Shown: positions 2,251 to 51,312, numbered from the stretch's first letter. The stretch is 64,000 nucleotides of DNA from Candidatus Nanoarchaeia archaeon (GCA_035290625.1 DATDTY010000051.1:4008-68007), one strand, 5' to 3'. A program made the numbers and translations. The notes: generated from the sequence alone by a model not told the origin.

Positions 2251-3324
2251 ATGAAAGCGGCGTTAATCTCCCTGGGAAGCGAAAGCTCGAAGTGGACTCT
2301 TAAAGCGATGAAGAAGTATTTCCAGAAAGTGGACGACTTTGACATCCGCAAGATGGAAGTTGCCATGACAAAGAGAGGGCTTGATGCCCTCTTTGAAGGC
2401 AATCCTCTCGAGGATTATGACTGCGTCTATGCCAAAGGCTCGTTCCGCTACCGGGCATTGCTAAGATCTATCACTGCTGCATTGTATTCAAAGTGCTACA
2501 TGCCTGTGTCTGCCGCTGCATTTTCCACAGGGCACAATAAGCTATCCACCCAGCTTGAGCTGCAGAAGAACAACGTCCCTATGCCGAACACGTATTTTGC
2601 CGCAACGCCGAGGGCTGGCCGCAACATCCTCAAGCGGGTCAGCTATCCGATTGTCATGAAGTTCCCGCAGGGAACACAGGGCAAAGGAGTCATGTTTTCT
2701 GACTCTTTTGCGTCAGCAAGCTCTCTTTTGGATGCCCTGGATGTCATGAACCAGCCATTTATCATCCAGGAGTATATCGAGACAGAAGGCAGCGACATCC
2801 GTGCGATTGTTGTCGGAGAGCAGGTGGTGGCCGCAATGAGGAGGACAGCGCTGAAGGGAGAGGTCCGCTCCAACATTCACGCAGGAGGACATGGCGAGCC
2901 TGTGAGCCTTGATTTCCAGGCCAGGAAGATAGCGGTTCAGGCTGCAAAAGCCATTGGTGCTGAGATATGCGGCGTGGATATCCTGGAGTCTGTGACAGGG
3001 CATTTAGTCATAGAGGTAAACCTGTCTCCTGGCCTGAAAGGAGTGACGAGAGCAACAGGGATAGATGTCGCTGACAAGATCGCTTCGTATCTTCATAGCC
3101 AGACAAAGCAAAGGGTTGATACGTCCAAAAAGAAAGGAGCAACAAAGATCATGAAGCAGATTGAGCCTGAGCAGCTAAAGGAGTTCATCACCACCCTGAG
3201 CTTTAGGGGAAACCGGATTCTATTGCCTGACACAGCCAACAACATTGCAAAGTTTAAGGATGATGAAGAAGTCACGATTCACGCCGAAAGGGGAAAGATT
3301 GAGATCAAGAAAACTGGATTCTGA
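2251..3324 (+). CDS. rimK: RimK-like ATP-grasp ligase with C-terminal extension
   Basis: ATP-grasp signature stretch (PIVMKFPQGTQGKGV...IIQEYIETEGSDIRAIVVG...EVN) adjacent to the retropepsin-like partner, plus about 80 aa of extra C-terminal tail. Confidence 0.7.
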   Translation: MKAALISLGSESSKWTLKAMKKYFQKVDDFDIRKMEVAMTKRGLDALFEGNPLEDYDCVYAKGSFRYRALLRSITAALYSKCYMPVSAAAFSTGHNKLSTQLELQKNNVPMPNTYFAATPRAGRNILKRVSYPIVMKFPQGTQGKGVMFSDSFASASSLLDALDVMNQPFIIQEYIETEGSDIRAIVVGEQVVAAMRRTALKGEVRSNIHAGGHGEPVSLDFQARKIAVQAAKAIGAEICGVDILESVTGHLVIEVNLSPGLKGVTRATGIDVADKIASYLHSQTKQRVDTSKKKGATKIMKQIEPEQLKEFITTLSFRGNRILLPDTANNIAKFKDDEEVTIHAERGKIEIKKTGF

Positions 3325-3475: not shown

Positions 3476-5083
3476 ATGATGGGAGGGAGAGGGCCAATGC
3501 CAGACACAAACCAGAATGCATCTGAAAGACCGTATATAAGCCCCAAGATATCTGAAAGCCTGAGCGAATATTTAATTCTTCCCTGGTGGGTCACCGCAAA
3601 ACCCGAAGAGGTCTCCCTGGAATGCAATCTGGGGAATATAAAGCTGCAATACCCGTTTATGACTGCGCGAATGCAGTCCGTTGTAGGGCCGGAGATGGCC
3701 GTAGCTGCAGGAAGGAACGGCATCTTGACGATGGTTCCAAGAAGCCTGAGGGATGAGGATAAACAGGCGATACTCGATGCGAATAATAATGCCCGCCTAA
3801 AGGCAGGAGATATTGAGTATCAAAGTAATTTTGTCTCTGCGCAACCGGAAACGAGATTTGACAATGTGGCAAAACTTGTTGAGACCTTTGGCTACTCAGT
3901 GATCCCTGTGATAGATAGGTTTTCAAAGCTCTATGGTGTATATGTCCATGATCCGAATAATCAACCTTCGGCTCCACCCTATACTCCTATTAAAGAACTC
4001 ATGCTTCCTTTAAGAAAACAAGGGCCGGGCAGGGGAGTTCAGTGTATTACTCATCGTGACGACCAGAAGATTAAAGAGATTGCGGCGAGCGAGGAGAAGA
4101 AGTTTATTCCTATAGTCAACGAAGCAGGCATTCTCCAAGAGATTGCATTCTTGCGCAAGTTTGATACAAATTATGCAGGGATAGCAATAAGTACCAGAGA
4201 TGGCCGTTGGCAGGAAGATCTGGAGAAATGGGGGCCTCAGGTGGACACCCTTTGTATTGACTCGTCAAATGCATGCTTTGATGATGCCCTCAAGATTCTT
4301 AAGGCAGCCAAAGAAAGGTTCCCTGATAAGCCGTTTGGGATAGGCAACATTGTCCACGGCGCACATTATAGACGATTTGCGGAAGATGGAGCAGATTATG
4401 TTATCGGAGGGATGGGTGTTGGTTCTATCTGCCAGACAGGAAGCGAGAGGGGGAATGGCAGGGGCCAGATGACTGTTGCCCATGAACTTGCCGTGGTGCG
4501 GGATGAATTGGAGGAAGAAGGGAAAAAGGTGCCATTTGTTATTGATGGGGCTATAGAGACTGTTAAGGATATGACCATTGCGCTGGCGCTGGCTGATCTC
4601 ATTATGATGGGTAATTTCTTTAACAGATTTTATGAAGCTGCAGGAAGAAAGTTAACAGAGAAAAGAAGCGGCAAAAATATAACTTATATTGAGACCGGCG
4701 ATGAATCTCTTATCAGTCACGTGGAGACTTGGGGGGAGGGCCATCCAACTGCAGGATTGGTTGCGATGTACGGGCTGCGTTTTAGAGAGGCCCTAGCCAA
4801 AGGATCTTCATCAAACAACGCCGAGGTTGCTGAGCGGTACGGACACTCAAATCTTTCAAGTTCTACGATAGAGGGAGTAGTTGGCGTAACGTCATACGCA
4901 GGGAGGCTGAAGCCCGGCATCGAGAAGGCGGGGAGGTATATTACAACAACCATATCCAATTCAGGCGGCCATGATCTGGCGAGCTTCAGAAAGTCTGTCA
5001 GGGAGAACCAGCTCCTTGAGCGAGCATCACAGAGAACAATCGAAGATATGCTTCCTCATGGTATTATAGTTACAGAAAGATAG
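3476..5083 (+). CDS. guaB: IMP dehydrogenase/GMP reductase family protein (CBS-containing, IMPDH-like)
   Basis: N-terminal barrel motif (NIKLQYPFMTARMQSVVGPEMAVAAGRNGILTMV) and a catalytic-Cys loop GGMGVGSICQT. A C-terminal IDGAIETVKDM...MMG stretch and inserted CBS-like segments are present. Longer than canonical IMPDH. Confidence 0.65.
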   Translation: MMGGRGPMPDTNQNASERPYISPKISESLSEYLILPWWVTAKPEEVSLECNLGNIKLQYPFMTARMQSVVGPEMAVAAGRNGILTMVPRSLRDEDKQAILDANNNARLKAGDIEYQSNFVSAQPETRFDNVAKLVETFGYSVIPVIDRFSKLYGVYVHDPNNQPSAPPYTPIKELMLPLRKQGPGRGVQCITHRDDQKIKEIAASEEKKFIPIVNEAGILQEIAFLRKFDTNYAGIAISTRDGRWQEDLEKWGPQVDTLCIDSSNACFDDALKILKAAKERFPDKPFGIGNIVHGAHYRRFAEDGADYVIGGMGVGSICQTGSERGNGRGQMTVAHELAVVRDELEEEGKKVPFVIDGAIETVKDMTIALALADLIMMGNFFNRFYEAAGRKLTEKRSGKNITYIETGDESLISHVETWGEGHPTAGLVAMYGLRFREALAKGSSSNNAEVAERYGHSNLSSSTIEGVVGVTSYAGRLKPGIEKAGRYITTTISNSGGHDLASFRKSVRENQLLERASQRTIEDMLPHGIIVTER

Positions 5084-6565: not shown

Positions 6566-7534
6566 TCACTCCTTCCTCAGCACTTCCCGTGAGATATGAG
6601 CGATTGAAGATATCATGGCCTTGAGATGCTCGAAGATTCGGATCAGGTCTTCAGATTGGTTTGGGATGGTTCGCATGAATTCTGTGATTAGGGGCAGCAT
6701 ATCTTTGGTCTGAAACTCGCTGGAAATCGCAAGCTGCAGGTCCTTGGTGTAGAAGGCATTCATTGCCTGCTCATAGAGCGGCTTTATTCTGGCGTAGAGA
6801 TCCTTCAGCCCTTTTTTCTGCCTTGCGTCAAGCTTTGCTGCTGCCAGAAACCTGCCGATCCTTTTGACATGGTCCCCTATTTCCTCAATCCTGATCACGA
6901 TAAGCCAGCGCGCAAAGAGGTAGGTATCCTTCACCCCGATTGATTTCAGGAAAGATGGATTTTGCTGGGCATAGTTGAGCAGCCGAAAGGAGAGATACGA
7001 GAGCCTGTTGATGTCCTGATCCCGGTGCTTGAGGGTTTCCGGGTTGTAGCCGTCAAGGCATTCAATCACATCTCCGAGCATGACTCTCAGCATCATGTCG
7101 ATGCGCCGGATTGTCGCATCAATAGAGACCTCTTTTAGGTCAATAAGGTCCTTGGCAACAATTTTAGTAGGAGTCTGCTCAATGATCTCCATCCCGACAA
7201 GGCTATACAGAGTCTCCCGGATCTCGGCAAGATGCCGGTCAACAGCCTGTTTGCCCTTGATCTCAATAAAGGTTGAGTTCTTCAGATACGCTGAGATGAT
7301 CTCCAGCTTGAGGTGCTTGATGTCCTTGTTTTCTGCTTCAATGATGATGGACTTGGTCTCCTTTGCAGAATGATCCTTCGGCGCAAGAATAAGATGATCT
7401 CCCTGCTCAAGGTAGTAGACCACGTCCCCCTTATGGAGGTTGTGGGAGTCCATCCACTCCTTGGGAAGCGAAACTACATACGAATTGACTCCAAACTTGA
7501 TGATTTTTCTGAAGTCTATATCCTCCACCCCCAT
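6566..7534 (-). CDS. AbrB/SpoVT-domain plus PhoU-domain regulator (archaeal PhoU homolog)
   Basis: Starts MGVEDIDFRKIIKFGVNSYVVSLPKEWMDSHNLHKGDVV (swapped-hairpin AbrB/MazE-type N-domain) followed by PhoU-like helices (EEIGDHVKRIGR). The 133-aa N-terminal extension of the ORF track reads through the AT-rich promoter region and is rejected. Confidence 0.65.
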   Translation of the reverse strand: MGVEDIDFRKIIKFGVNSYVVSLPKEWMDSHNLHKGDVVYYLEQGDHLILAPKDHSAKETKSIIIEAENKDIKHLKLEIISAYLKNSTFIEIKGKQAVDRHLAEIRETLYSLVGMEIIEQTPTKIVAKDLIDLKEVSIDATIRRIDMMLRVMLGDVIECLDGYNPETLKHRDQDINRLSYLSFRLLNYAQQNPSFLKSIGVKDTYLFARWLIVIRIEEIGDHVKRIGRFLAAAKLDARQKKGLKDLYARIKPLYEQAMNAFYTKDLQLAISSEFQTKDMLPLITEFMRTIPNQSEDLIRIFEHLKAMISSIAHISREVLRKE

Positions 7535-7648
7535 GCCAAAGCTATTGATAGCCTTAAATTCGAGTATATATAAGTTATATTGTATATAAGGTATATGGGC
7601 AATGTATATATAATTTTTGGTCTCATTCTTAGATAAGGAGGTGATAGC
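7535..7648. promoter_or_regulatory. AT-rich divergent promoter region with TATA-like repeats (tatatataagttatattgtatataaggtatat)
   Basis: Intergenic region between the divergent PhoU-like gene and the small acidic ORF. It has multiple TATA-like boxes and a strong SD (AAGGAGGTGA) before the GTG at 7649. Confidence 0.4.
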
Positions 7649-7801
7649 GTGAAAGAACAGGAGTATGCAGGGGCCAAAGAAGAATTTGAGCCAATAGAGG
7701 GAGTGATTTATGACGAGGAGGAGAGGAACGCCCTGCTTGAGAATGACGAGATCGCTCCCTGGGAAGAAGGATTCATGGATGGGTATGACGGGGCAGGGTG
7801 A
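7649..7801 (+). CDS. Small acidic protein (50 aa) with EEGFMDGYD motif
   Basis: GTG start 9 nt after a perfect SD AAGGAGGTGA. Paralogous to the ORF at 11748-11948 (shared EEF..IY..LL..EE[DG]GFM[DQ]GY[DE] pattern). Confidence 0.45.
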   Translation: MKEQEYAGAKEEFEPIEGVIYDEEERNALLENDEIAPWEEGFMDGYDGAG

Positions 7802-7893
7802 GATTTCATCGTCTGCCCTTTTTGCGAGGGTTTTTCCTATAGTTAACAATAGCGATAGGCTTTTAAAATATACAAGGTTACAGTCCATTTCAA

Positions 7894-9198
7894 ATGGTAT
7901 GTAGTGTAAAGATGGCAACCACGTACGAATCACCTTGCCTTGATAGTTCCGGGGACAATTCAGCCGCGGAGCAAGATGGATTAAGACAGGTTGATGAATT
8001 TACGAGACCTAAGATTATCCTTGTTAGTGGACCAAAAGGCGCGGGGAAGCGCGAAATTGCCCAACTCCTAGAGATACAAAAATATGGAGTTGTCATAAAG
8101 AAGCACACTACCCGGAGGCCATCAGATTCACCTCTCCCGTGGGGGATAGATGAGACCTTGTTGTTCACCTTTGTTTCACCTACCGAATTCGAAAGTCTTG
8201 AACAGCAAGGCGAATTCAGGTTTATAACTCAGTCACAAGATCACAGGTATGGCATTCATCAGAAATCATTAGAAGAGGCATTGGGGGACTCATCGTTGCA
8301 TACTCTTTCACTGGCATCAGGATACTCTTCGTTTCAGGATCATTATAAATTTTTTAATAAAGTGGCAAAGAATCATCCGAATAAACCGACCCTTGTATCT
8401 GTTCTAATCTATTCAACCCAAAGAGACCTCCAAGACAGCGTGCTGAAGAGCCAAGAATTGGTAACAAGTCAGATGCTCCACGATTATGCTAAGAAATGCC
8501 AGACGCTCTTGCGACATCAAGATGAATTTGATTATATTATACGTAACCCGCTGCCGTTTGGGTACCTGCTAAGAGACGAAAAAGCACAGATAACCCATTC
8601 TGAATATATCAACCGGACCACCTTGTTATTTGGAAAAATATTAGAATGGGAGAAATCCGAACAACGAAACCCCAATGATTCGATAGCCCACAATCACAAA
8701 AGGTTCGTCAATCATCTCATCAGTACCATTTTTTCAAAGTCTACGGAGGAAGTTTCGTCTTCGTTAGAAAACAACCATTTGGAAATCCGATTTACTGAAG
8801 GAGAGAGGGAGAGCTATGCGCAGTCAAAGCGTTATCCTAAAAGCAGCATCCCACAGGAGGTGAGAATCAGGGCCATGCACAGATCCTATGGTATTTGGAC
8901 TATGTATATCTCAAGCAAGATGGGGGCAGAATCAAGAAACATGACCCTTGATATGATCGCGAGGAGAGCGGGGATGATCTATGCGCAAAGAATACCCCAA
9001 GAGGACTCCACACTCTTGGCGCCTCTGAGCCAAATTACTGAGCTTGGAAGAACAAAAACAAATGCAATGATTCACGAGGGCGGGCTATTCAGTTTACGTG
9101 ATGTCATAGCTAAGCAGCACAATGCGCCGGTCTATGCAGTAAATATCGCTTTCATCTACAATCTGCCTCGGCACCAACAGCTTCAATGTACTCCTTAG
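7894..9198 (+). CDS. Guanylate-kinase-like P-loop domain fused to an uncharacterised C-terminal domain (paralog 1)
   Basis: N-terminal section matches GMP kinase landmarks: SGPKGAGK (P-loop), KKHTTRRP (GK TTR motif), F.FVS..EF, RYG, FDYIIRNP. The C-terminal 230 aa have no recognisable motif but are homologous to the C-terminus of the next gene. Lower GC than flanks. Confidence 0.6.
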   Translation: MVCSVKMATTYESPCLDSSGDNSAAEQDGLRQVDEFTRPKIILVSGPKGAGKREIAQLLEIQKYGVVIKKHTTRRPSDSPLPWGIDETLLFTFVSPTEFESLEQQGEFRFITQSQDHRYGIHQKSLEEALGDSSLHTLSLASGYSSFQDHYKFFNKVAKNHPNKPTLVSVLIYSTQRDLQDSVLKSQELVTSQMLHDYAKKCQTLLRHQDEFDYIIRNPLPFGYLLRDEKAQITHSEYINRTTLLFGKILEWEKSEQRNPNDSIAHNHKRFVNHLISTIFSKSTEEVSSSLENNHLEIRFTEGERESYAQSKRYPKSSIPQEVRIRAMHRSYGIWTMYISSKMGAESRNMTLDMIARRAGMIYAQRIPQEDSTLLAPLSQITELGRTKTNAMIHEGGLFSLRDVIAKQHNAPVYAVNIAFIYNLPRHQQLQCTP

Positions 9199-9307
9199 AG
9201 TTGCGCTCGCCTGAGTCTTAAGTATAATCCCACATAATCCCGGCAAGCGGGATGACCACGGCAGCAGTTAAACGATAGCCTTTTAAACGGCCGGGGGTTA
9301 ACCGATA

Positions 9308-10621
9308 GTGGGGGGAACTATGGAGATACCTTTTAGACATAATTCAAAAAAAGATCCAGATGCCAAGGAAGTGTCTCCCCTCGTGCTTATTTTGACCGGT
9401 CCACGGGCAGTGGGGAAGACAGAAATCAAAGACATCCTTACGGAGCGTAACTATGGATGGAGTCTCCCAAAGATAACTACAAGGGCCCCGCGAGAAGGTG
9501 AAACCCAAGTTAAGGATAAGGAATTTATTGATCAGAAGAGATTTGACACGCTCCAGAAGGAGGGCAAACTCTCAGTTACATGCGCATATAAGGGGTGCGA
9601 TTATGGAGTTCTTCAAGAAGTCGAACAGGAGGCATTAACAAAACAAGAGGATATCATTATCACTGCAACTGGCTTTGGGATATTTAAGGCATTTTCATCT
9701 CATTTTCCTGATGCTGTTTCGGTATTAGTTTATTCCAGTATCGATGAGTTGCTGCAAAGGAAAGTGCTTCGGGATAAGATTGTGACAGAGGCTTCACTTC
9801 TGGAAGAGTTTATCCAGGAAATGAAGAAGTATGAGGAGCACCAGGAGCTCTTTACCTATATCGTAGAGAATCCTTCACCCTTTGGATTTGCAGTCGGCGA
9901 TATTTTTAAGCAGGACCACGTTGCCCAAGTGGCTCGCGCTGCAAATCTTGTTGCGGCTGCACTCGAGTGGGAAAAGATCTATAGAGAAACACCAACATCA
10001 ATGACGCGGAATATGGGGTTTATCAATCATCTTGTGGGGGCCATTTCCGATGGGGGGACAATGAAACAGATTGAGAGACAAATAAAGAAGAAGGGAAGCT
10101 ACCAAATCAATTTTCCCAAAGATCTTCGCGGGAAATATGCACATGATACATCCACTGCTCTTGGGATGATTCCTGAAAGCGTCTCTATAAATCCTACTTG
10201 TCAAACGTATGGTGTAATATCGCTCTTTATCGATAATGGTGCTGGAGAACAGAGATATAACGGATATGAAAGAAAGATTATACTTGACCTGTTTGAGCGG
10301 AAGGCGGTAATCAAGGGCAACATGCATGCCATATATGCCGAGGTTGCTGATCAGGGTTACCCCGAACAAGATCTGTCCAGCTACGGAAAGGTTGCTATAG
10401 GGGGGGCAAATATTCAGGAGGGGGGGCTTATAACGTTGCGAAGGGACTTGGGGGTTCCAACACCGGACCAAGAACTTCATGGCTTAAATCTTGGGTTTGT
10501 TCGCCATGACGCCCAACTGCCGCTTAAACCTCAGGGGATATCACTGCAACGGCTCGCTGAAAAAGCCAGAAATCTCTATTCTCAGGCGCGAAGTTTTATG
10601 ATACCCAGGACCTATCTTTAG
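9308..10621 (+). CDS. Guanylate-kinase-like P-loop domain fused to an uncharacterised C-terminal domain (paralog 2)
   Basis: LTGPRAVGKTEI P-loop, ITTRAPREGE, CAYKGCDYGV, FTYIVENPSPFG. Shares ILEWEK, [RG]FINHL and EGGL[FI][ST]LR blocks with paralog 1. Stop codon overlaps the convergent gene at 10618. Confidence 0.6.
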   Translation: MGGTMEIPFRHNSKKDPDAKEVSPLVLILTGPRAVGKTEIKDILTERNYGWSLPKITTRAPREGETQVKDKEFIDQKRFDTLQKEGKLSVTCAYKGCDYGVLQEVEQEALTKQEDIIITATGFGIFKAFSSHFPDAVSVLVYSSIDELLQRKVLRDKIVTEASLLEEFIQEMKKYEEHQELFTYIVENPSPFGFAVGDIFKQDHVAQVARAANLVAAALEWEKIYRETPTSMTRNMGFINHLVGAISDGGTMKQIERQIKKKGSYQINFPKDLRGKYAHDTSTALGMIPESVSINPTCQTYGVISLFIDNGAGEQRYNGYERKIILDLFERKAVIKGNMHAIYAEVADQGYPEQDLSSYGKVAIGGANIQEGGLITLRRDLGVPTPDQELHGLNLGFVRHDAQLPLKPQGISLQRLAEKARNLYSQARSFMIPRTYL

Positions 10622-11595
10622 TCCTTGAGGGATCTAGGGGCCTTAGCAGGGTATTCCTGAAGGGAAAGGAGAATTTTTGTCAGTTCTACCAGGAATTCCA
10701 GGATCGGCTCCATGCTGGTTAGAATGAGAAGTTCTGCGGGAGGGATTTTCTCCTTCAAATCTTTTATCCTTCTGATATACATATCTCTGTTGTGGTACAT
10801 ATCGGTTACTCTGTTCGGGTCATATTTGTAGAAAATACCATAAAAGAGGTGTAGGTTTTTATAAATTAAGGTGATGTTCGTAATGGAAGAGTCATCCATC
10901 TTCTTTTTGAGCAAGGCAGCCTCACGAGCAGAATATTTTACGGTGTCACGAACTTTATCAAGCATGGCTATGGTGTGGTAGATCACTGTAACCTTTTCAG
11001 GATCAGGCGGATATCCTCTTTTGTTAAGGATTCTTAGGGTATAGCTTGCAAACTTTGTAACAAGCCCATGCTTGTCCTCTATCGTGTGGATTTTATCATT
11101 TTTATGCTGCTTCAGACCTTCGATAAAGGTTTCGAGCATATCCAGCAAAAGCATAAATATCCGGCGGAGAACCACTTCAAAGTCCTTGAACGACGGTTCC
11201 GACAAATCTTTCAACATACAGAAATCATCCTTGAAACTGAGGACTTCAACCCCAATGAGGCGCTCAACCTCAGTCCGAATAATGCTCCGCATGTCCACAA
11301 ATTCCCGTGTTCGGAAGTGATACGCAGAGGGCTTTGAAAAATGAATGCCTATCTCATCGAAACCTCTGATATATAAGCCGCGGATATAGATGATGATGGA
11401 TGTGCGGTCAAGACCAGAAACGTCAATCTCAATCTTTTTAACTTCCGGGATTCTCTCTTTGCTTACAACAATCTGTTGCCCCTTCTCCTCCACCTCGATC
11501 TCATCCCCCTTCCTGATGTTATGGCTAAGGCACCACTTCCTCGGCAATGAGACGAGCTGCGTTGAATGGCCTACCTGGATGATTTTCCGCTTCAT
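10618..11595 (-). CDS. AbrB/SpoVT-domain plus PhoU-domain regulator (second copy)
   Basis: MKRKIIQVGHSTQLVSLPRKWCLSHNIRKGDEIEV (AbrB-type N-domain) followed by a PhoU-like helical region. Same architecture and size (325 aa) as 6566-7534. Confidence 0.65.
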   Translation of the reverse strand: MKRKIIQVGHSTQLVSLPRKWCLSHNIRKGDEIEVEEKGQQIVVSKERIPEVKKIEIDVSGLDRTSIIIYIRGLYIRGFDEIGIHFSKPSAYHFRTREFVDMRSIIRTEVERLIGVEVLSFKDDFCMLKDLSEPSFKDFEVVLRRIFMLLLDMLETFIEGLKQHKNDKIHTIEDKHGLVTKFASYTLRILNKRGYPPDPEKVTVIYHTIAMLDKVRDTVKYSAREAALLKKKMDDSSITNITLIYKNLHLFYGIFYKYDPNRVTDMYHNRDMYIRRIKDLKEKIPPAELLILTSMEPILEFLVELTKILLSLQEYPAKAPRSLKD

Positions 11596-11747
11596 ATTCC
11601 CCCGGAATCCTGGAGATACAACTTTTATATAAATCTTTTGATTCTATATAAAATCTATATAGATTATAAAATATTAGGGATAAGTATATAAAAATAGGGG
11701 AGTTCCCTCTCAACAGGGTAAGTACTACATTGTGAGGGGTGAGGCCG
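11596..11747. promoter_or_regulatory. AT-rich divergent promoter region (ttttatataaatcttttgattctatataaaatctatatagattataaaatattagggataagtatataaaaatag)
   Basis: Multiple TATA-like boxes and short inverted repeats (tatagat/atctata) between divergent genes. SD GGGGTGAGG sits before the ATG at 11748. Confidence 0.4.
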
Positions 11748-11948
11748 ATGAAGGAATTTGAGATGGACGAAGAATTTGATGACCAGAACATCTACGCAGG
11801 GCGCACAAGAGAGCTGCTCGTTGAAGAGGATTCCCTAAGGCCCGAAGAAGATGGCTTTATGCAAGGATATGAAGATGCTGAAAATCCTGATGATATCATA
11901 GAGGCCGCAGAAGAGGAGAGCCTTATGCAGGAGGTGGAATCAGGATGA
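11748..11948 (+). CDS. Small acidic protein (66 aa) with EDGFMQGYED motif
   Basis: Paralog of 7649-7801, placed in the same position divergent from an AbrB-PhoU gene. Acidic, low complexity. A GTG at 11739 could be the alternative start. Confidence 0.45.
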   Translation: MKEFEMDEEFDDQNIYAGRTRELLVEEDSLRPEEDGFMQGYEDAENPDDIIEAAEEESLMQEVESG

Positions 11949-12067
11949 AGCTGAATTATCACTTCTTTTTTGAGAAGGAAATAAATCCGGTATTCGAAGA
12001 GATCGAAAACGACGGAAAGCCTTATCGCATCCTTGAAGCGCTCAAGATGCTCAAGCGGAGATTGTAG
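11945..12067 (+). CDS. Small hypothetical ORF (40 aa)
   Basis: ATGA overlap with the previous ORF (MKLNYHFFFEKEINPVFEEIENDGKPYRILEALKMLKRRL). No homology evidence. Confidence 0.2.
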   Translation: MKLNYHFFFEKEINPVFEEIENDGKPYRILEALKMLKRRL

Positions 12068-12263
12068 GAGCATTGGCGTTCTTTGGAAGCAGTGAACAGA
12101 CATGTCATAAGTCATGATGCTGTGAGTTATGATAAGAATGTTTGTTCATGATTTTGCATAATTTTGTATATATTAAATATACCCCATATATGGCATATAG
12201 AAAATATCTATATACTTCAAGAGCTTCAGAGTATTCATGAGATGCGGACAGGGGGTGATCGGG

Positions 12264-12398
12264 ATGAGGGCAGACAAAAATACCTTCAAGAGGATCGTGG
12301 GGCTTTTAGAGACCTATGAGGACAAGGATATGGAAAGGTATCTGCTTGAGAAGGAGTGGGATGATCTGATTAACGGCAGAGAGGCAGGAGAGCTATAA
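12264..12398 (+). CDS. Small hypothetical ORF (44 aa)
   Basis: ATG follows the SD AGGGGGTGA; MRADKNTFKRIVGLLETYEDKDMERYLLEKEWDDLINGREAGEL. Confidence 0.25.
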   Translation: MRADKNTFKRIVGLLETYEDKDMERYLLEKEWDDLINGREAGEL

Positions 12399-16396: not shown

Positions 16397-16490
16397 AGCC
16401 CCATGGTGTAGCGGTCAAATTCCTGTGAAGGAAGACGAAGCATCTTTGGTTCTGGGCCAAAGGACCTCGGTTCGAATCCGGGTGGGGCTA
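16397..16490 (+). tRNA. tRNA-Gln (anticodon CUG) with an about 20-nt insertion in the D-arm region (non-canonical intron)
   Basis: Acceptor AGCCCCA/TGGGGCT with discriminator A. Anticodon stem CTTTGG/CCAAAG with loop TTCTGGG (U33, CUG). T-arm CTCGG-TTCGAAT-CCGGG. 94 nt in total, so about 20 extra nt lie between the D-loop (GTGTAGCGGTCAA) and position 26. Confidence 0.6.
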
Positions 16491-51159: not shown

Positions 51160-51312
51160 TGCCGCTGTAGCTCAGCCTGGTTAGAGCGCTACATGCTTGT
51201 TTTCGCAAGTCAGCGAGGCTCATATGTTTGAGCGATGATCCGAAAGGAGATGACATACTCAGGCGATAACTGGGTGACGTAGAGGTCAGGGGCTCAAATC
51301 CCCTCAGCGGCA
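51160..51312 (+). tRNA. Intron-containing tRNA (about 153 nt; roughly 78-nt insertion in the anticodon region; anticodon unresolved, CUU/Lys possible)
   Basis: Acceptor GCCGCTG/CAGCGGC with discriminator A. Canonical D-arm TAGCTCAGCCTGGTTAGAGCG (A14, G18G19, A21). T-arm AGGGG-CTCAAAT-CCCCT with C48, G53:C61. Between position 26 and CGTAG (39-43) lies a structured insert containing the CTTG-TTTTCG-CAAG hairpin. A31/C39 would mispair if the intron sits at 37/38. Confidence 0.6.

What the first reader, a model, noticed from the sequence alone, without database searches (positions are those of the whole stretch)
6566..11948. Low-GC cassette: two tandem guanylate-kinase-like fusion proteins bracketed by duplicated AbrB-PhoU regulator plus small acidic protein modules
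Two adjacent paralogs (7894-9198, 9308-10621) each have an unmistakable guanylate-kinase-type P-loop domain (GxxGxGK, TTR, RYG, FDYII.NP landmarks). Each is fused to a roughly 230-aa C-terminal domain with no recognisable motif. That domain is shared only between the two paralogs (ILEWEK, FINHL, EGGL[FI][ST]LR blocks). The pair is flanked on both sides by near-identical-architecture AbrB/SpoVT-PhoU regulators on the opposite strand. Each regulator is divergently paired, across an AT-rich TATA-repeat promoter, with a small acidic protein. The cassette is about 10% lower in GC than its surroundings, which suggests acquisition. PhoU-family regulators normally partner with Pst transporters; here they bracket nucleotide-kinase-like genes, which looks like a self-contained regulated module of unknown function. 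It may involve nucleotide signalling or modification, or a defence/toxin role.
Basis: partly seen in the sequence, partly recalled or inferred. Interest (0 to 1): 0.75.

Follow-up and report, generated by a model that had tools for sequence, protein, structure and literature searches.

The report
Guanylate-kinase-like regulatory module in DPANN archaea
The region is a real, undescribed gene module of tiny symbiotic (DPANN/Woesearchaeota-type) archaea: kinase-like proteins carrying an unknown extra domain sit next to an AbrB-PhoU-type gene regulator and a very acidic mini-protein, most likely forming a signalling and regulation unit rather than an ordinary nucleotide kinase or a recently imported cassette.

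Summary

The window comes from a 'Candidatus Nanoarchaeia' (DPANN) MAG. The order GK-fusion -> <- AbrB-PhoU <-> acidic protein recurs in all 4 independent loci found through the C-terminal domain. It also recurs in 14 of about 27 close AbrB-PhoU loci in Woesearchaeota genomes. Relatives often carry N-terminal receiver domains.

GK2 keeps the P-loop and phosphate-binding arginines but lacks the guanine-specifying residues. GK1 is a pseudokinase. A housekeeping Gmk is therefore unlikely.

Horizontal acquisition is not supported: the GC dip is 3.3 points and synteny with gyrB is conserved. However, a related strain is 97.6% identical up to position 7866 and then diverges abruptly (GK proteins 30-34% identical).

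Best reading (confidence about 0.4): a lineage-specific signalling module controlling an AbrB-PhoU transcription factor.

The parts
6566..7534 (-). AP1: transcription-factor-like protein, 322 aa, with an N-terminal AbrB/MazE/SpoVT swapped-hairpin domain and a PhoU-like helical C-terminal part. A divergent paralog of AP2.
   Evidence: Pfam MazE_antitoxin E 1.2e-8; PhoU E 3e-4 (21.5 bits, below the gathering score). NCBIfam phoU_full E 7e-4. NCBI names the identical protein HLD43240.1 'phosphate uptake regulator PhoU'.
7535..7648 (.). Bidirectional AT-rich promoter region between AP1 and SA1, with repeated GTATATATAA / TATA-like elements.
   Evidence: Sequence. Upstream regions of 55 AP genes show the same BRE-like purine run plus TTTATATA, together with further TATA-like elements.
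7649..7801 (+). SA1: 50-aa strongly acidic protein (pI 4.05) with the conserved motif IY..E.R..LLENDE[IL].P.EE[GA]FM.GY..A.
   Evidence: Homologous to SA2 and to small ORFs divergent from AP genes in other loci (local HMM E 1e-10 to 1e-26). Annotated as hypothetical protein HLD43241.1. No Pfam, NCBIfam or PADLOC match.
7802..7893 (.). SA1-GK1 spacer with a TATA-like element (TTTAAAATATAC, 7861-7872) about 25 bp before the GK1 ATG. A sharp homology breakpoint at 7866/7867 separates it from a related strain.
   Evidence: L003 and L004 come from two different assemblies. L004 is 97.6% identical over window 7613-7866 and L003 is 98% identical over the 50 bp it covers (7817-7866); both then become unalignable.
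7894..9198 (+). GK1: 434 aa. Residues about 39-218 (nt 8008-8547) have a guanylate-kinase fold with degenerate catalytic residues (GKR instead of GK[ST]; the second GMP-phosphate Arg and both LID Arg are lost), making it a pseudokinase. Residues 219-434 (nt 8548-9195) form the novel C-terminal domain (CTD).
   Evidence: The ortholog P0003 is even more degenerate (GKA; TTR changed to TIG). NCBI names it 'hypothetical protein' HLD43242.1.
9308..10621 (+). GK2: 437 aa (433 aa if it starts at the ATG at 9320). Residues about 24-189 (nt 9377-9874) have a guanylate-kinase fold with an intact P-loop (GPRAVGKT), TTRAPREGE, YG and LID R..LR, but without the guanine-specifying Glu, Ser and Asp. Residues 190-437 (nt 9875-10618) form the CTD.
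10618..11595 (-). AP2: 325-aa AbrB/MazE-domain regulator of the type conserved next to GK-fusions. Convergent with GK2; the two stop codons overlap by 4 nt.
   Evidence: Pfam MazE_antitoxin E 2.9e-6. Orthologs are 60%, 47% and 34% identical in L004, L005 and L006. 39 of 40 family members match MazE_antitoxin and 12 of 40 match PhoU (best E 4.8e-7). NCBI: HLD43244.1, 'AbrB/MazE/SpoVT family DNA-binding domain-containing protein'.
11596..11738 (.). Bidirectional AT-rich promoter region between AP2 and SA2. It holds a BRE/TATA (AAAAGATTTATATAAAAG) about 40 bp before the AP2 ATG, further TATA-like elements, and a TATA-N-CCCTAA-N-TATA arrangement seen in other loci.
   Evidence: The post hoc pattern occurs in 9 of 55 upstream regions, against 0.24 expected from shuffles.
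11739..11948 (+). SA2: acidic mini-protein, 69 aa from the GTG or 66 aa from the ATG at 11748, pI 4.05, with the same motif as SA1 plus an acidic tail.

Best explanation
This is a signalling and regulation module specific to a lineage of DPANN archaea (Woesearchaeota / 'Nanoarchaeia'). Its conserved core is three genes in a fixed arrangement. The first is a guanylate-kinase-fold P-loop protein fused to a novel roughly 230-aa alpha/beta domain (GK-CTD). The second is a convergent, abutting gene for an AbrB-fold DNA-binding protein with a PhoU-like helical domain (AP). The third is a 44-70-aa very acidic protein (SA), transcribed divergently from AP across a shared BRE/TATA-rich promoter. In this genome the core (GK2 -> <- AP2 <-> SA2) is expanded by a pseudokinase paralog (GK1) and a second AP/SA pair (AP1 <-> SA1).

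Proposed mechanism (inferred). AP binds the bidirectional promoter through its AbrB domain and controls itself and SA. In the window, AP1 may also control the co-directional SA1-GK1-GK2 genes. SA antagonises AP, either as an acidic DNA mimic or anti-repressor, or as a ligand of the PhoU-like domain. GK2-type proteins bind ATP and a phosphorylated ligand that is not specifically GMP. Through the CTD, possibly as a GK1/GK2 heterodimer, they pass nucleotide or phosphate status to AP, much as bacterial PhoU communicates with the PstB ATPase. In relatives the same protein carries an N-terminal receiver domain, so phosphorylation by a two-component kinase is an alternative input.

Shown here: domain identities, catalytic-residue patterns, conserved gene order, promoter architecture and taxonomic range. 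Inferred: every interaction and the direction of control.
For: Fold and domains. Family and rarity: an exhaustive HMMER scan of 1.84 billion representative proteins with the CTD profile gave only 6 hits, and all of them are GK+CTD proteins. Linkage: all 4 independent loci found through the CTD have the convergent AP gene and an SA gene. Of the 66 GTDB loci found through AP, 14 have a GK-like gene ending within about 20 bp of, or overlapping, the AP stop. These 14 fall among the roughly 27 loci with the closest AP proteins. Flanking genes differ between loci (aaRS, PolB, V4R, KaiC-like), so it is the adjacency itself that is conserved. Signalling character: Pfam Response_reg sits N-terminal to the GK domain in L024 (E 4e-16) and L032 (E 1e-8), and a REC-PAS protein lies next to the GK gene in L022. 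Where the GK gene is absent, the convergent partner is a His_Phos_1 phosphatase (L012, E 7e-22), which is again phosphoryl-transfer chemistry. Residues: GK2-type proteins keep GxxGxGK[ST], TTRxPR and the LID arginines but not the guanine-binding Glu, Ser and Asp; GK1-type proteins lose the catalytic set. SpoVT/AbrB-PhoU proteins are established as an abundant archaeal transcription-factor family and as chromatin-associated proteins (PMC6316755, PMC7325993). From my own knowledge, not tested here: B. subtilis AbrB is antagonised by the small acidic protein AbbA, and E. coli PhoU interacts with PstB and PhoR.
Against: No interaction, DNA binding or enzyme activity has been tested. Convergent orientation is not an operon, so co-regulation is not implied by the gene order. 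About half of the closest AP genes lack a GK partner, and many AP/SA pairs exist without one, so AP/SA can work without GK-CTD. AP2 itself gives no PhoU match; only 12 of 40 family members do. The CTD model is of moderate confidence when modelled alone (pLDDT 65), and its fold is unassigned. Very fast divergence of the GK genes between strains that share a 97.6%-identical SA1 is more typical of conflict genes than of regulators.
Confidence: 0.4

Rival explanations
1. It is a conflict system: a toxin-antitoxin, anti-virus or host-interaction module. A P-loop kinase toxin or effector (GK-CTD) would be held in check by a MazE/AbrB-fold antitoxin-regulator (AP), possibly with the acidic SA protein. 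It would be kept polymorphic by diversifying selection.
For: The AP N-terminal domain matches MazE_antitoxin and 'doc_partner' addiction-module antidote models. GK1 gives a weak Zeta_toxin P-loop match (E 0.005, below the cut-off). A related strain is 97.6% identical through SA1 and then switches abruptly to GK genes only 30-34% identical in protein. The family is tiny and patchily distributed. One copy is frameshifted (L010). The stretch has the lowest GC in the window.
Against: There is no PADLOC match above noise. The genes are convergent, not a co-transcribed toxin-antitoxin pair. Receiver-domain fusions point to signalling. The module sits among housekeeping genes with conserved synteny (gyrB, RimK, aaRS). 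It has no flanking repeats or mobility genes. The AbrB fold is a general DNA-binding fold, and AbrB-PhoU proteins are ordinary archaeal regulators.
Confidence: 0.2
2. It is the lineage's nucleotide-salvage kinase. GK2 would be a real (d)NMP/GMP kinase supplying GDP in an organism that scavenges nucleotides, the CTD would be an accessory or regulatory domain, and the neighbouring regulators would be incidental or would control purine metabolism. IMPDH and purA lie just upstream.
Against: Scores are far below the Gmk equivalog cut-offs (53 against 160 bits). Residues that read the guanine base are not conserved anywhere in the family. GK1 is catalytically dead. Relatives carry receiver domains. 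The purA/IMPDH neighbourhood is not conserved in other loci. The family is rare (6 hits in 1.84 billion representatives) and absent next to about half of the closest AP genes, which does not fit an essential enzyme. Protein identity between near relatives is only 30-34%.
Confidence: 0.15
3. There is no functional unit. AbrB-PhoU regulators are numerous in these genomes, and the adjacency to GK-CTD genes is inherited synteny without functional meaning.
For: AP homologs occur in 66 loci with many different neighbours. AbrB-PhoU is a multi-copy family in archaea. The orientation is convergent.
Against: The adjacency survives where all other neighbours have changed, and across AP identities down to 34% and GK identities down to 21%. 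The stop-to-stop abutment is maintained. The partner switches to another phosphoryl-transfer enzyme (His_Phos_1) in several loci.
Confidence: 0.15

Closest known systems
Guanylate kinase (Gmk; Pfam PF00625, TIGR03263)
   Different: The score is far below the equivalog cut-off. The guanine-specifying Glu, Ser and Asp are absent. A roughly 230-aa C-terminal domain is added, and in relatives so are N-terminal receiver domains. GK1 is a pseudokinase.
MAGUK guanylate-kinase-like domains (CASK, PSD-95, DLG1, ZO-1)
   Different: MAGUKs are eukaryotic, are fused to PDZ/SH3 domains and lack a functional P-loop. GK2 keeps its P-loop. No phosphopeptide binding was tested.
Archaeal SpoVT/AbrB-PhoU transcription regulators (e.g. 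T. kodakarensis TK2245; the 'PhoU family' TFs of P. furiosus)
   Same: Same two-part architecture: an AbrB/MazE N-terminal domain and a PhoU-like helical C-terminal part. Named this way in NCBI and UniProt annotation.
   Different: AP2-type proteins are a DPANN-specific subfamily with a fixed convergent GK-CTD partner and a divergent acidic mini-protein. No such partners are described in the papers found.
Bacillus subtilis AbrB with its anti-repressor AbbA (recalled from memory, not tested here)
   Same: An AbrB-fold DNA-binding regulator paired with a small, very acidic protein.
   Different: No sequence similarity was shown. SA is encoded divergently next to its putative target. The SA-AP interaction is purely inferred.
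Bacterial PhoU-PstB/PhoR signalling (recalled from memory)
   Same: A PhoU-type helical domain working with a P-loop ATPase to report phosphate or nucleotide status.
   Different: There is no Pst transporter or PhoR here. PhoU is fused to a DNA-binding domain. The P-loop partner has a GK fold, not an ABC ATPase fold.
Pol-beta-type nucleotidyltransferase fold (DZF domain of NF45/NF90, CD-NTases CdnB/DncV/CdnC, OAS, TdT, TENT5C), as a possible relative of the CTD
   Different: No hit is significant (TM about 0.2). The G[GS]...[DE]x[DE] catalytic motif is absent and no acidic triad is conserved. The order of secondary-structure elements does not obviously fit.
Epsilon/zeta (PezAT) kinase toxin-antitoxin systems
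   Same: A P-loop kinase next to a small-domain regulator. GK1 gives a weak Zeta_toxin P-loop hit.
   Different: The hit is below threshold and covers the P-loop only. The genes are convergent. The AP protein is 320 aa with a PhoU-like domain. There are no defence-database matches.

Membership tests
Guanylate kinase (Gmk, EC 2.7.4.8) | Guanylate-kinase fold / Pfam PF00625 above the gathering score | tested here: met
Guanylate kinase (Gmk, EC 2.7.4.8) | Score above the NCBIfam equivalog cut-off (TIGR03263, 160.45 bits) | tested here: not met
   32.1 bits (GK1) and 53 bits (GK2).
Guanylate kinase (Gmk, EC 2.7.4.8) | Catalytic P-loop GxxGxGK[ST], GMP-phosphate arginines (TTRxPR) and LID arginines | tested here: inconclusive
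   Present in GK2 and most relatives. Absent in GK1 (GKR; R changed to S; LID Arg lost) and in P0003. The third Arg (yeast R146) appears to be lost in GK2/P0002, but the alignment is uncertain there.
Guanylate kinase (Gmk, EC 2.7.4.8) | Guanine-recognising residues (yeast Guk1 Glu69, Ser80, Asp100; reference sequences and numbering recalled from memory) | tested here: not met
   The aligned positions are Ser/Asp/Ala, Val/Leu/Ile and Thr/Ser/Ala respectively, and none is conserved across the family.
Guanylate kinase (Gmk, EC 2.7.4.8) | GMP + ATP -> GDP + ADP activity | not testable with these tools
   Needs an enzyme assay.
SpoVT/AbrB-PhoU archaeal transcription regulators | N-terminal AbrB/MazE/SpoVT swapped-hairpin domain | tested here: met
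   AP1 E 1.2e-8 and AP2 E 2.9e-6, both above the gathering score. 39 of 40 family members match.
SpoVT/AbrB-PhoU archaeal transcription regulators | C-terminal PhoU domain(s) | tested here: inconclusive
   AP1 scores 21.5 bits, below the 23.5 cut-off. AP2 gives no hit. 12 of 40 homologs match PhoU, best E 4.8e-7. A profile search against PDB sequences found nothing.
SpoVT/AbrB-PhoU archaeal transcription regulators | Sequence-specific DNA binding / transcriptional control | not testable with these tools
   Only promoter architecture was seen.
Type II toxin-antitoxin (MazE-type antitoxin with a kinase toxin) / anti-phage defence | Co-directional two-gene operon of antitoxin and toxin | tested here: not met
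   GK and AP are convergent in all 18 loci.
Type II toxin-antitoxin (MazE-type antitoxin with a kinase toxin) / anti-phage defence | Match to known defence-system protein models | tested here: not met
   PADLOC gave only noise-level hits (E 0.0085 and 0.0004 over partial stretches).
Type II toxin-antitoxin (MazE-type antitoxin with a kinase toxin) / anti-phage defence | Toxicity of the kinase and neutralisation by the partner | not testable with these tools
   Needs expression experiments.
Two-component response regulators | Receiver (REC) domain with a phospho-acceptor Asp | tested here: not met
   The window's GK1 and GK2 have only 25-40-aa N-terminal tails. Homologs in L024 and L032 do have Response_reg (E 4e-16, 1e-8), with the Asp visible in the sequence.
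Pol-beta-type nucleotidyltransferases (as a home for the CTD) | hG[GS]x9-13[DE]h[DE]h motif and a third carboxylate | tested here: not met
   There is no such motif. The invariant or near-invariant CTD residues are E(WE), Y, G, L, G, (E/D)GG, L and F.
Pol-beta-type nucleotidyltransferases (as a home for the CTD) | Significant structural similarity | tested here: inconclusive

The most novel reading that the evidence does not exclude
GK-CTD proteins are a new class of archaeal signal-transduction effector. Their architecture would be (receiver)-guanylate-kinase-like kinase-novel, possibly degenerate nucleotidyltransferase-like, domain. They would make or sense a phosphorylated nucleotide-type signal and control an AbrB-PhoU transcription factor together with a dedicated acidic anti-repressor. 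The kinase genes would be swapped as a cassette between closely related DPANN strains, suggesting a role in host-symbiont or virus conflict.
Probability: 0.25. Interest if true: 0.75.

Novelty: new variant of a known kind. Interest (0 to 1): 0.55.

Why it matters
DPANN archaea have very small genomes and almost no characterised regulation. A conserved module that occupies 5 kb of such a genome is likely to matter for their symbiotic lifestyle. It would add three things. The first is a new output architecture for archaeal signalling: a guanylate-kinase fold reused outside metazoan MAGUKs, sometimes under receiver-domain control. The second is two protein families with no known relatives, the roughly 230-aa CTD and the acidic SA mini-protein. 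The third is a first functional partner set for the abundant but uncharacterised archaeal AbrB-PhoU regulators. The abrupt strain-level replacement of the kinase genes offers a natural experiment on what these proteins recognise.

Tried and rejected
1. Word-seeded homolog searches were nearly empty. GK2 gave no hits, GK1 gave only itself, and the CTD alignment gave only a truncated GK2.
2. The first genome-contig scan, with GK2+P0002, chose uninformative peptide patterns and found nothing.
3. The metagenome-contig scan used only the P-loop pattern. It returned 20 matches restricted to the GK-domain region of the query, probably ordinary guanylate kinases. They were not examined further and add no information on linkage.
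The afdb50 library was unavailable.
5. Rfam found only tRNAs and nothing in the cassette.
6. The small ORFs after SA2 (11945-12067, 12237-12398) and after SA in L005 and L006 are not conserved between loci.
7. The repeat search found no flanking direct or inverted repeats that would mark a mobile element.
8. Literature searches for archaeal GMP kinase gaps, Woesearchaeota guanylate kinase and receiver-guanylate-kinase fusions found nothing relevant.
10. Rejected idea: the TENT5C sequence match (E 0.3) as evidence for an NTase. It covers one helix and strand only, and the catalytic strands that precede this segment in TENT5C have no counterpart in the CTD.


Full report
**Observation.** The ORF map shows the following genes, from left to right.
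- AP1, 6566-7534 (-). The listed 455-aa ORF is over-extended; the conserved start is MGVEDIDFRKII, and NCBI holds the identical 322-aa protein.
- SA1, 7649-7801 (+).
- GK1, 7894-9198 (+).
- GK2, 9308-10621 (+), with an alternative ATG at 9320.
- AP2, 10618-11595 (-).
- SA2, 11739-11948 (+).

Pfam places a Guanylate_kin domain in the N-terminal halves of GK1 and GK2, just above the gathering score. It places a MazE/AbrB domain at the N-terminus of both AP proteins, with a sub-threshold PhoU match in AP1. GK1 and GK2 are 27% identical over their whole length (E 2e-35). AP1 and AP2 are 26% identical. SA1 and SA2 share a C-terminal motif and are extremely acidic (pI 4.05, 30-38% D+E). A BLAST of all window ORFs finds no further paralogs in the 64 kb. 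The description is therefore correct. The GC dip is real but small: 44.8% against 48.1%, about 2 SD for 5.4-kb windows. GC3 of GK1 and GK2 is like that of neighbouring housekeeping genes.

**Where it comes from.** The window proteins are identical to HLD43238-HLD43248 of a 'Candidatus Nanoarchaeia archaeon' TPA MAG, on a 72,967-bp contig. There AP1 is called 'phosphate uptake regulator PhoU', AP2 is called 'AbrB/MazE/SpoVT family DNA-binding domain-containing protein', and SA1 and GK1 are 'hypothetical protein'. Ribosomal protein S3Ae, Cdc6/Orc1 and GyrB in the window agree with an archaeon. Relatives of AP2 in GTDB genomes are almost all Woesearchaeota or Nanoarchaeota (DPANN) MAGs.

**The GK-fusion family.** Word-seeded searches found nothing beyond self. 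An exhaustive HMMER scan of 1.84 billion cluster representatives with the C-terminal-domain (CTD) profile gave six hits, and all are proteins with a GK domain followed by the CTD. They are GK1 itself, a truncated GK2, P0003 (GK1-type), P0002 (GK2-type), P0005, and P0006 (676 aa, with a 270-aa N-terminal extension).

Local iterative searches in loci fetched through AP2 added members in L007, L008, L010 (frameshifted), L011 and L025 with a recognisable CTD. They also added GK-like partners with more divergent or missing C-terminal parts in L015, L019, L022, L024, L026, L030, L032 and L034. Pfam detects Response_reg receiver domains N-terminal to the GK domain in L024 and L032. Other long forms have REC-like N-termini by eye.

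**Conserved linkage.** In every locus reached through the GK-CTD protein itself, the gene is followed by a convergent MazE/AbrB-domain gene of 313-327 aa. These loci are L003/L004, L005 and L006, plus the window.
- In L005 and L006 the regulator is in turn divergent from an SA homolog. The one in L006 was not called by the gene finder.
- In L004 an SA1 ortholog precedes the GK pair.
- Among 66 GTDB loci found through AP2-type proteins, 14 have a GK-like gene whose end lies within about 20 bp of, or overlaps, the AP stop. All 14 fall among the roughly 27 loci with the most AP2-like regulators.
- SA homologs lie divergently upstream of AP in at least 12 loci, including three tandem copies in L039.
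- Neighbouring genes otherwise differ: aminoacyl-tRNA synthetases, PolB, inositol monophosphatase, V4R, KaiC-like.
- Where no GK gene is present, the convergent partner is a histidine-phosphatase-superfamily protein in L012 (Pfam), and by sequence inspection also in L014, L017 and L033. In other loci it is an unrelated gene.

- GK2-type proteins keep GxxGxGK[ST], TTRxPR, the YG motif and the LID R..R.
- The positions of the guanine-recognising Glu69, Ser80 and Asp100 are not conserved in any member.
- GK1 and its ortholog P0003 have GKR/GKA, have lost the second phosphate-binding Arg (P0003 has also lost TTR), and have lost both LID arginines.
- NCBIfam guanylate-kinase equivalog scores are 32 and 53 bits against a cut-off of 160.

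Hence GK2 is probably an active ATP-dependent enzyme or ATP-binding switch that binds a phosphorylated ligand which is not specifically GMP. GK1 is a pseudokinase.

**The regulators and promoters.** Of 40 AP-family proteins, 39 match MazE_antitoxin and 12 match PhoU (best E 4.8e-7), so the PhoU relationship holds at family level but not for AP2 alone. SpoVT/AbrB-PhoU proteins are a common archaeal transcription-factor family, with seven PhoU-family TFs in P. furiosus (PMC6316755). TK2245 is chromosome-associated in T. kodakarensis (PMC7325993). The absence of a Pst transporter is therefore not anomalous.

Upstream regions of 55 AP genes show a purine-rich BRE-like run plus TTTATATA about 35-45 bp before the ATG, together with further TATA-like elements that serve the divergent SA gene. 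A post hoc pattern, TATA-N-CCTTAA-N-TATA, occurs in 9 of 55 regions against 0.24 in shuffles, and it is present before AP2. This is only a lead for an operator.

**Acquisition.**
- There are no flanking repeats.
- No mobility genes lie nearby.
- gyrB lies next to the AP-SA pair in L012 and L070 as in the window, and RimK lies within 3-5 kb in L006, L010, L020 and L025.

This argues for vertical inheritance in the lineage. There is, however, a striking mosaic. Contigs L004 and L003 come from two other assemblies. L004 is 97.6% identical in DNA to window 7613-7866 (SA1 plus 65 bp), and L003 is 98% identical over the 50 bp it covers (7817-7866). Both then lose all similarity at 7866/7867, 27 bp before the GK1 start. 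Beyond the breakpoint, GK1 against P0003 is 30% identical, GK2 against P0002 is 34% identical, and AP2 is 60% identical in protein (72% in DNA, and only over its N-terminal two-thirds). One possibility is that the GK1-GK2(-AP2) block is replaced as a cassette between close strains. The other is that SA1 was recently exchanged between more distant ones. The contigs are too short to tell.

**Mechanism.** I commit to a signalling and regulation module, with confidence about 0.4.
- AP controls the shared AP/SA promoter through its AbrB domain.
- SA acts as an acidic antagonist of AP. The analogy is B. subtilis AbrB-AbbA, which I recall from memory.
- GK-CTD proteins are the nucleotide- or phosphorylation-responsive component that talks to the PhoU-like domain. 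The analogy is PhoU-PstB, also from memory. GK1 would serve as a non-catalytic partner of GK2.

Domain identities, residue patterns, gene order and distribution are shown. All interactions are inferred. The rivals are:
- a conflict or toxin-type system (0.2), favoured by the MazE-like domain and the strain-level hypervariability, and disfavoured by the orientation, the receiver fusions, the housekeeping context and the lack of defence-model matches;
- a salvage NMP/GMP kinase (0.15), disfavoured by the residue pattern, rarity, the pseudokinase and the receiver fusions;
- mere synteny (0.15).

**Novelty and score.** The parts with known folds belong to known kinds: a GK-fold kinase and an AbrB-PhoU regulator. 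The GK-CTD architecture, the CTD itself, the SA mini-protein family and their fixed three-gene arrangement were not found in any model library or paper searched. I rate it a new variant of a known kind, with interest 0.55. It is a solid, lineage-wide, uncharacterised module in a poorly understood group. At present it has no experimental handle and no link to a long-standing open question.

Noticed in passing
window 7866/7867 (compare L004:1-254, L003:1-50): Abrupt homology breakpoint. Two contigs from other assemblies match the window almost exactly up to 7866 (L004 97.6% over 7613-7866; L003 98% over 7817-7866) and are unalignable from 7867, just upstream of GK1. The GK genes beyond it are only 30-34% identical in protein, and AP2 is 60% identical.
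   Followed up: partly
L012:10963-11529 (-); also L014, L017, L033 downstream of the AP gene: In Woesearchaeota loci where the AP2-type regulator has no GK-fusion partner, the convergent abutting gene is a histidine-phosphatase-superfamily protein (His_Phos_1, E 7e-22 in L012).
   Followed up: partly
L024:3289-5082 (-), L032:997-2379 (-), L022:12685-14619 (-): GK-like partners of AP carry bona fide receiver domains (two in L024 by eye). In L022 the next gene is a REC-PAS-TrmB-like protein.
   Followed up: partly
L010:5372-6190, L011:10007-10720, L025:11270-12136 (+): A further conserved protein of about 240-290 aa with no Pfam match lies divergent from the long (receiver-like) GK-CTD genes in three loci (32% identity between L010 and L011). 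It is absent from the window.
   Followed up: partly
window 2251-3324; L006:4461-5549, L010:8022-9167, L020:12570-13658, L025:13994-15055: A RimK-type ATP-grasp ligase lies within 3-5 kb of the module in five loci (50-57% identical). In L006 it is preceded by a RimB-like protease. This may be synteny only.
   Followed up: no
L039:8768-9892 (-): Three tandem SA paralogs lie upstream of one AP gene.
   Followed up: no
window 11945-12067 (+) and 12237-12398 (+); palindrome 12160-12217: Two small ORFs (40 and 53 aa) lie between SA2 and gyrB, the second behind an AT-rich palindromic TATA-like region (CCATATATGG). Neither is conserved in the other loci.
   Followed up: yes
window 16397-16490 (+) and 51161-51312 (+): Likely intron-containing tRNA genes. 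ARAGORN reports a 94-nt tRNA with a 4-base anticodon loop call. Rfam finds a 152-nt tRNA match that ARAGORN misses.
   Followed up: no
window 3476-5083 (+): The 'IMP dehydrogenase' is 535 aa, but its Pfam IMPDH match covers only profile positions 5-253 of 345 across residues 30-396. It may be a divergent IMPDH/GMP-reductase-like protein rather than a standard GuaB.
   Followed up: no
L010:3227-5336 (-); L001:313-3109: The GK-CTD gene in L010 is split by a frameshift (pseudogene or assembly error). Contig L001 of the window's own strain has frameshifts in purA and AP1.
   Followed up: no
L012, L016, L027, L037 and other TPA bins: Several bins titled 'uncultured Methanosarcinales archaeon' carry AP-type loci like those of the Woesearchaeota MAGs, so the taxonomic labels look doubtful.
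   Followed up: no
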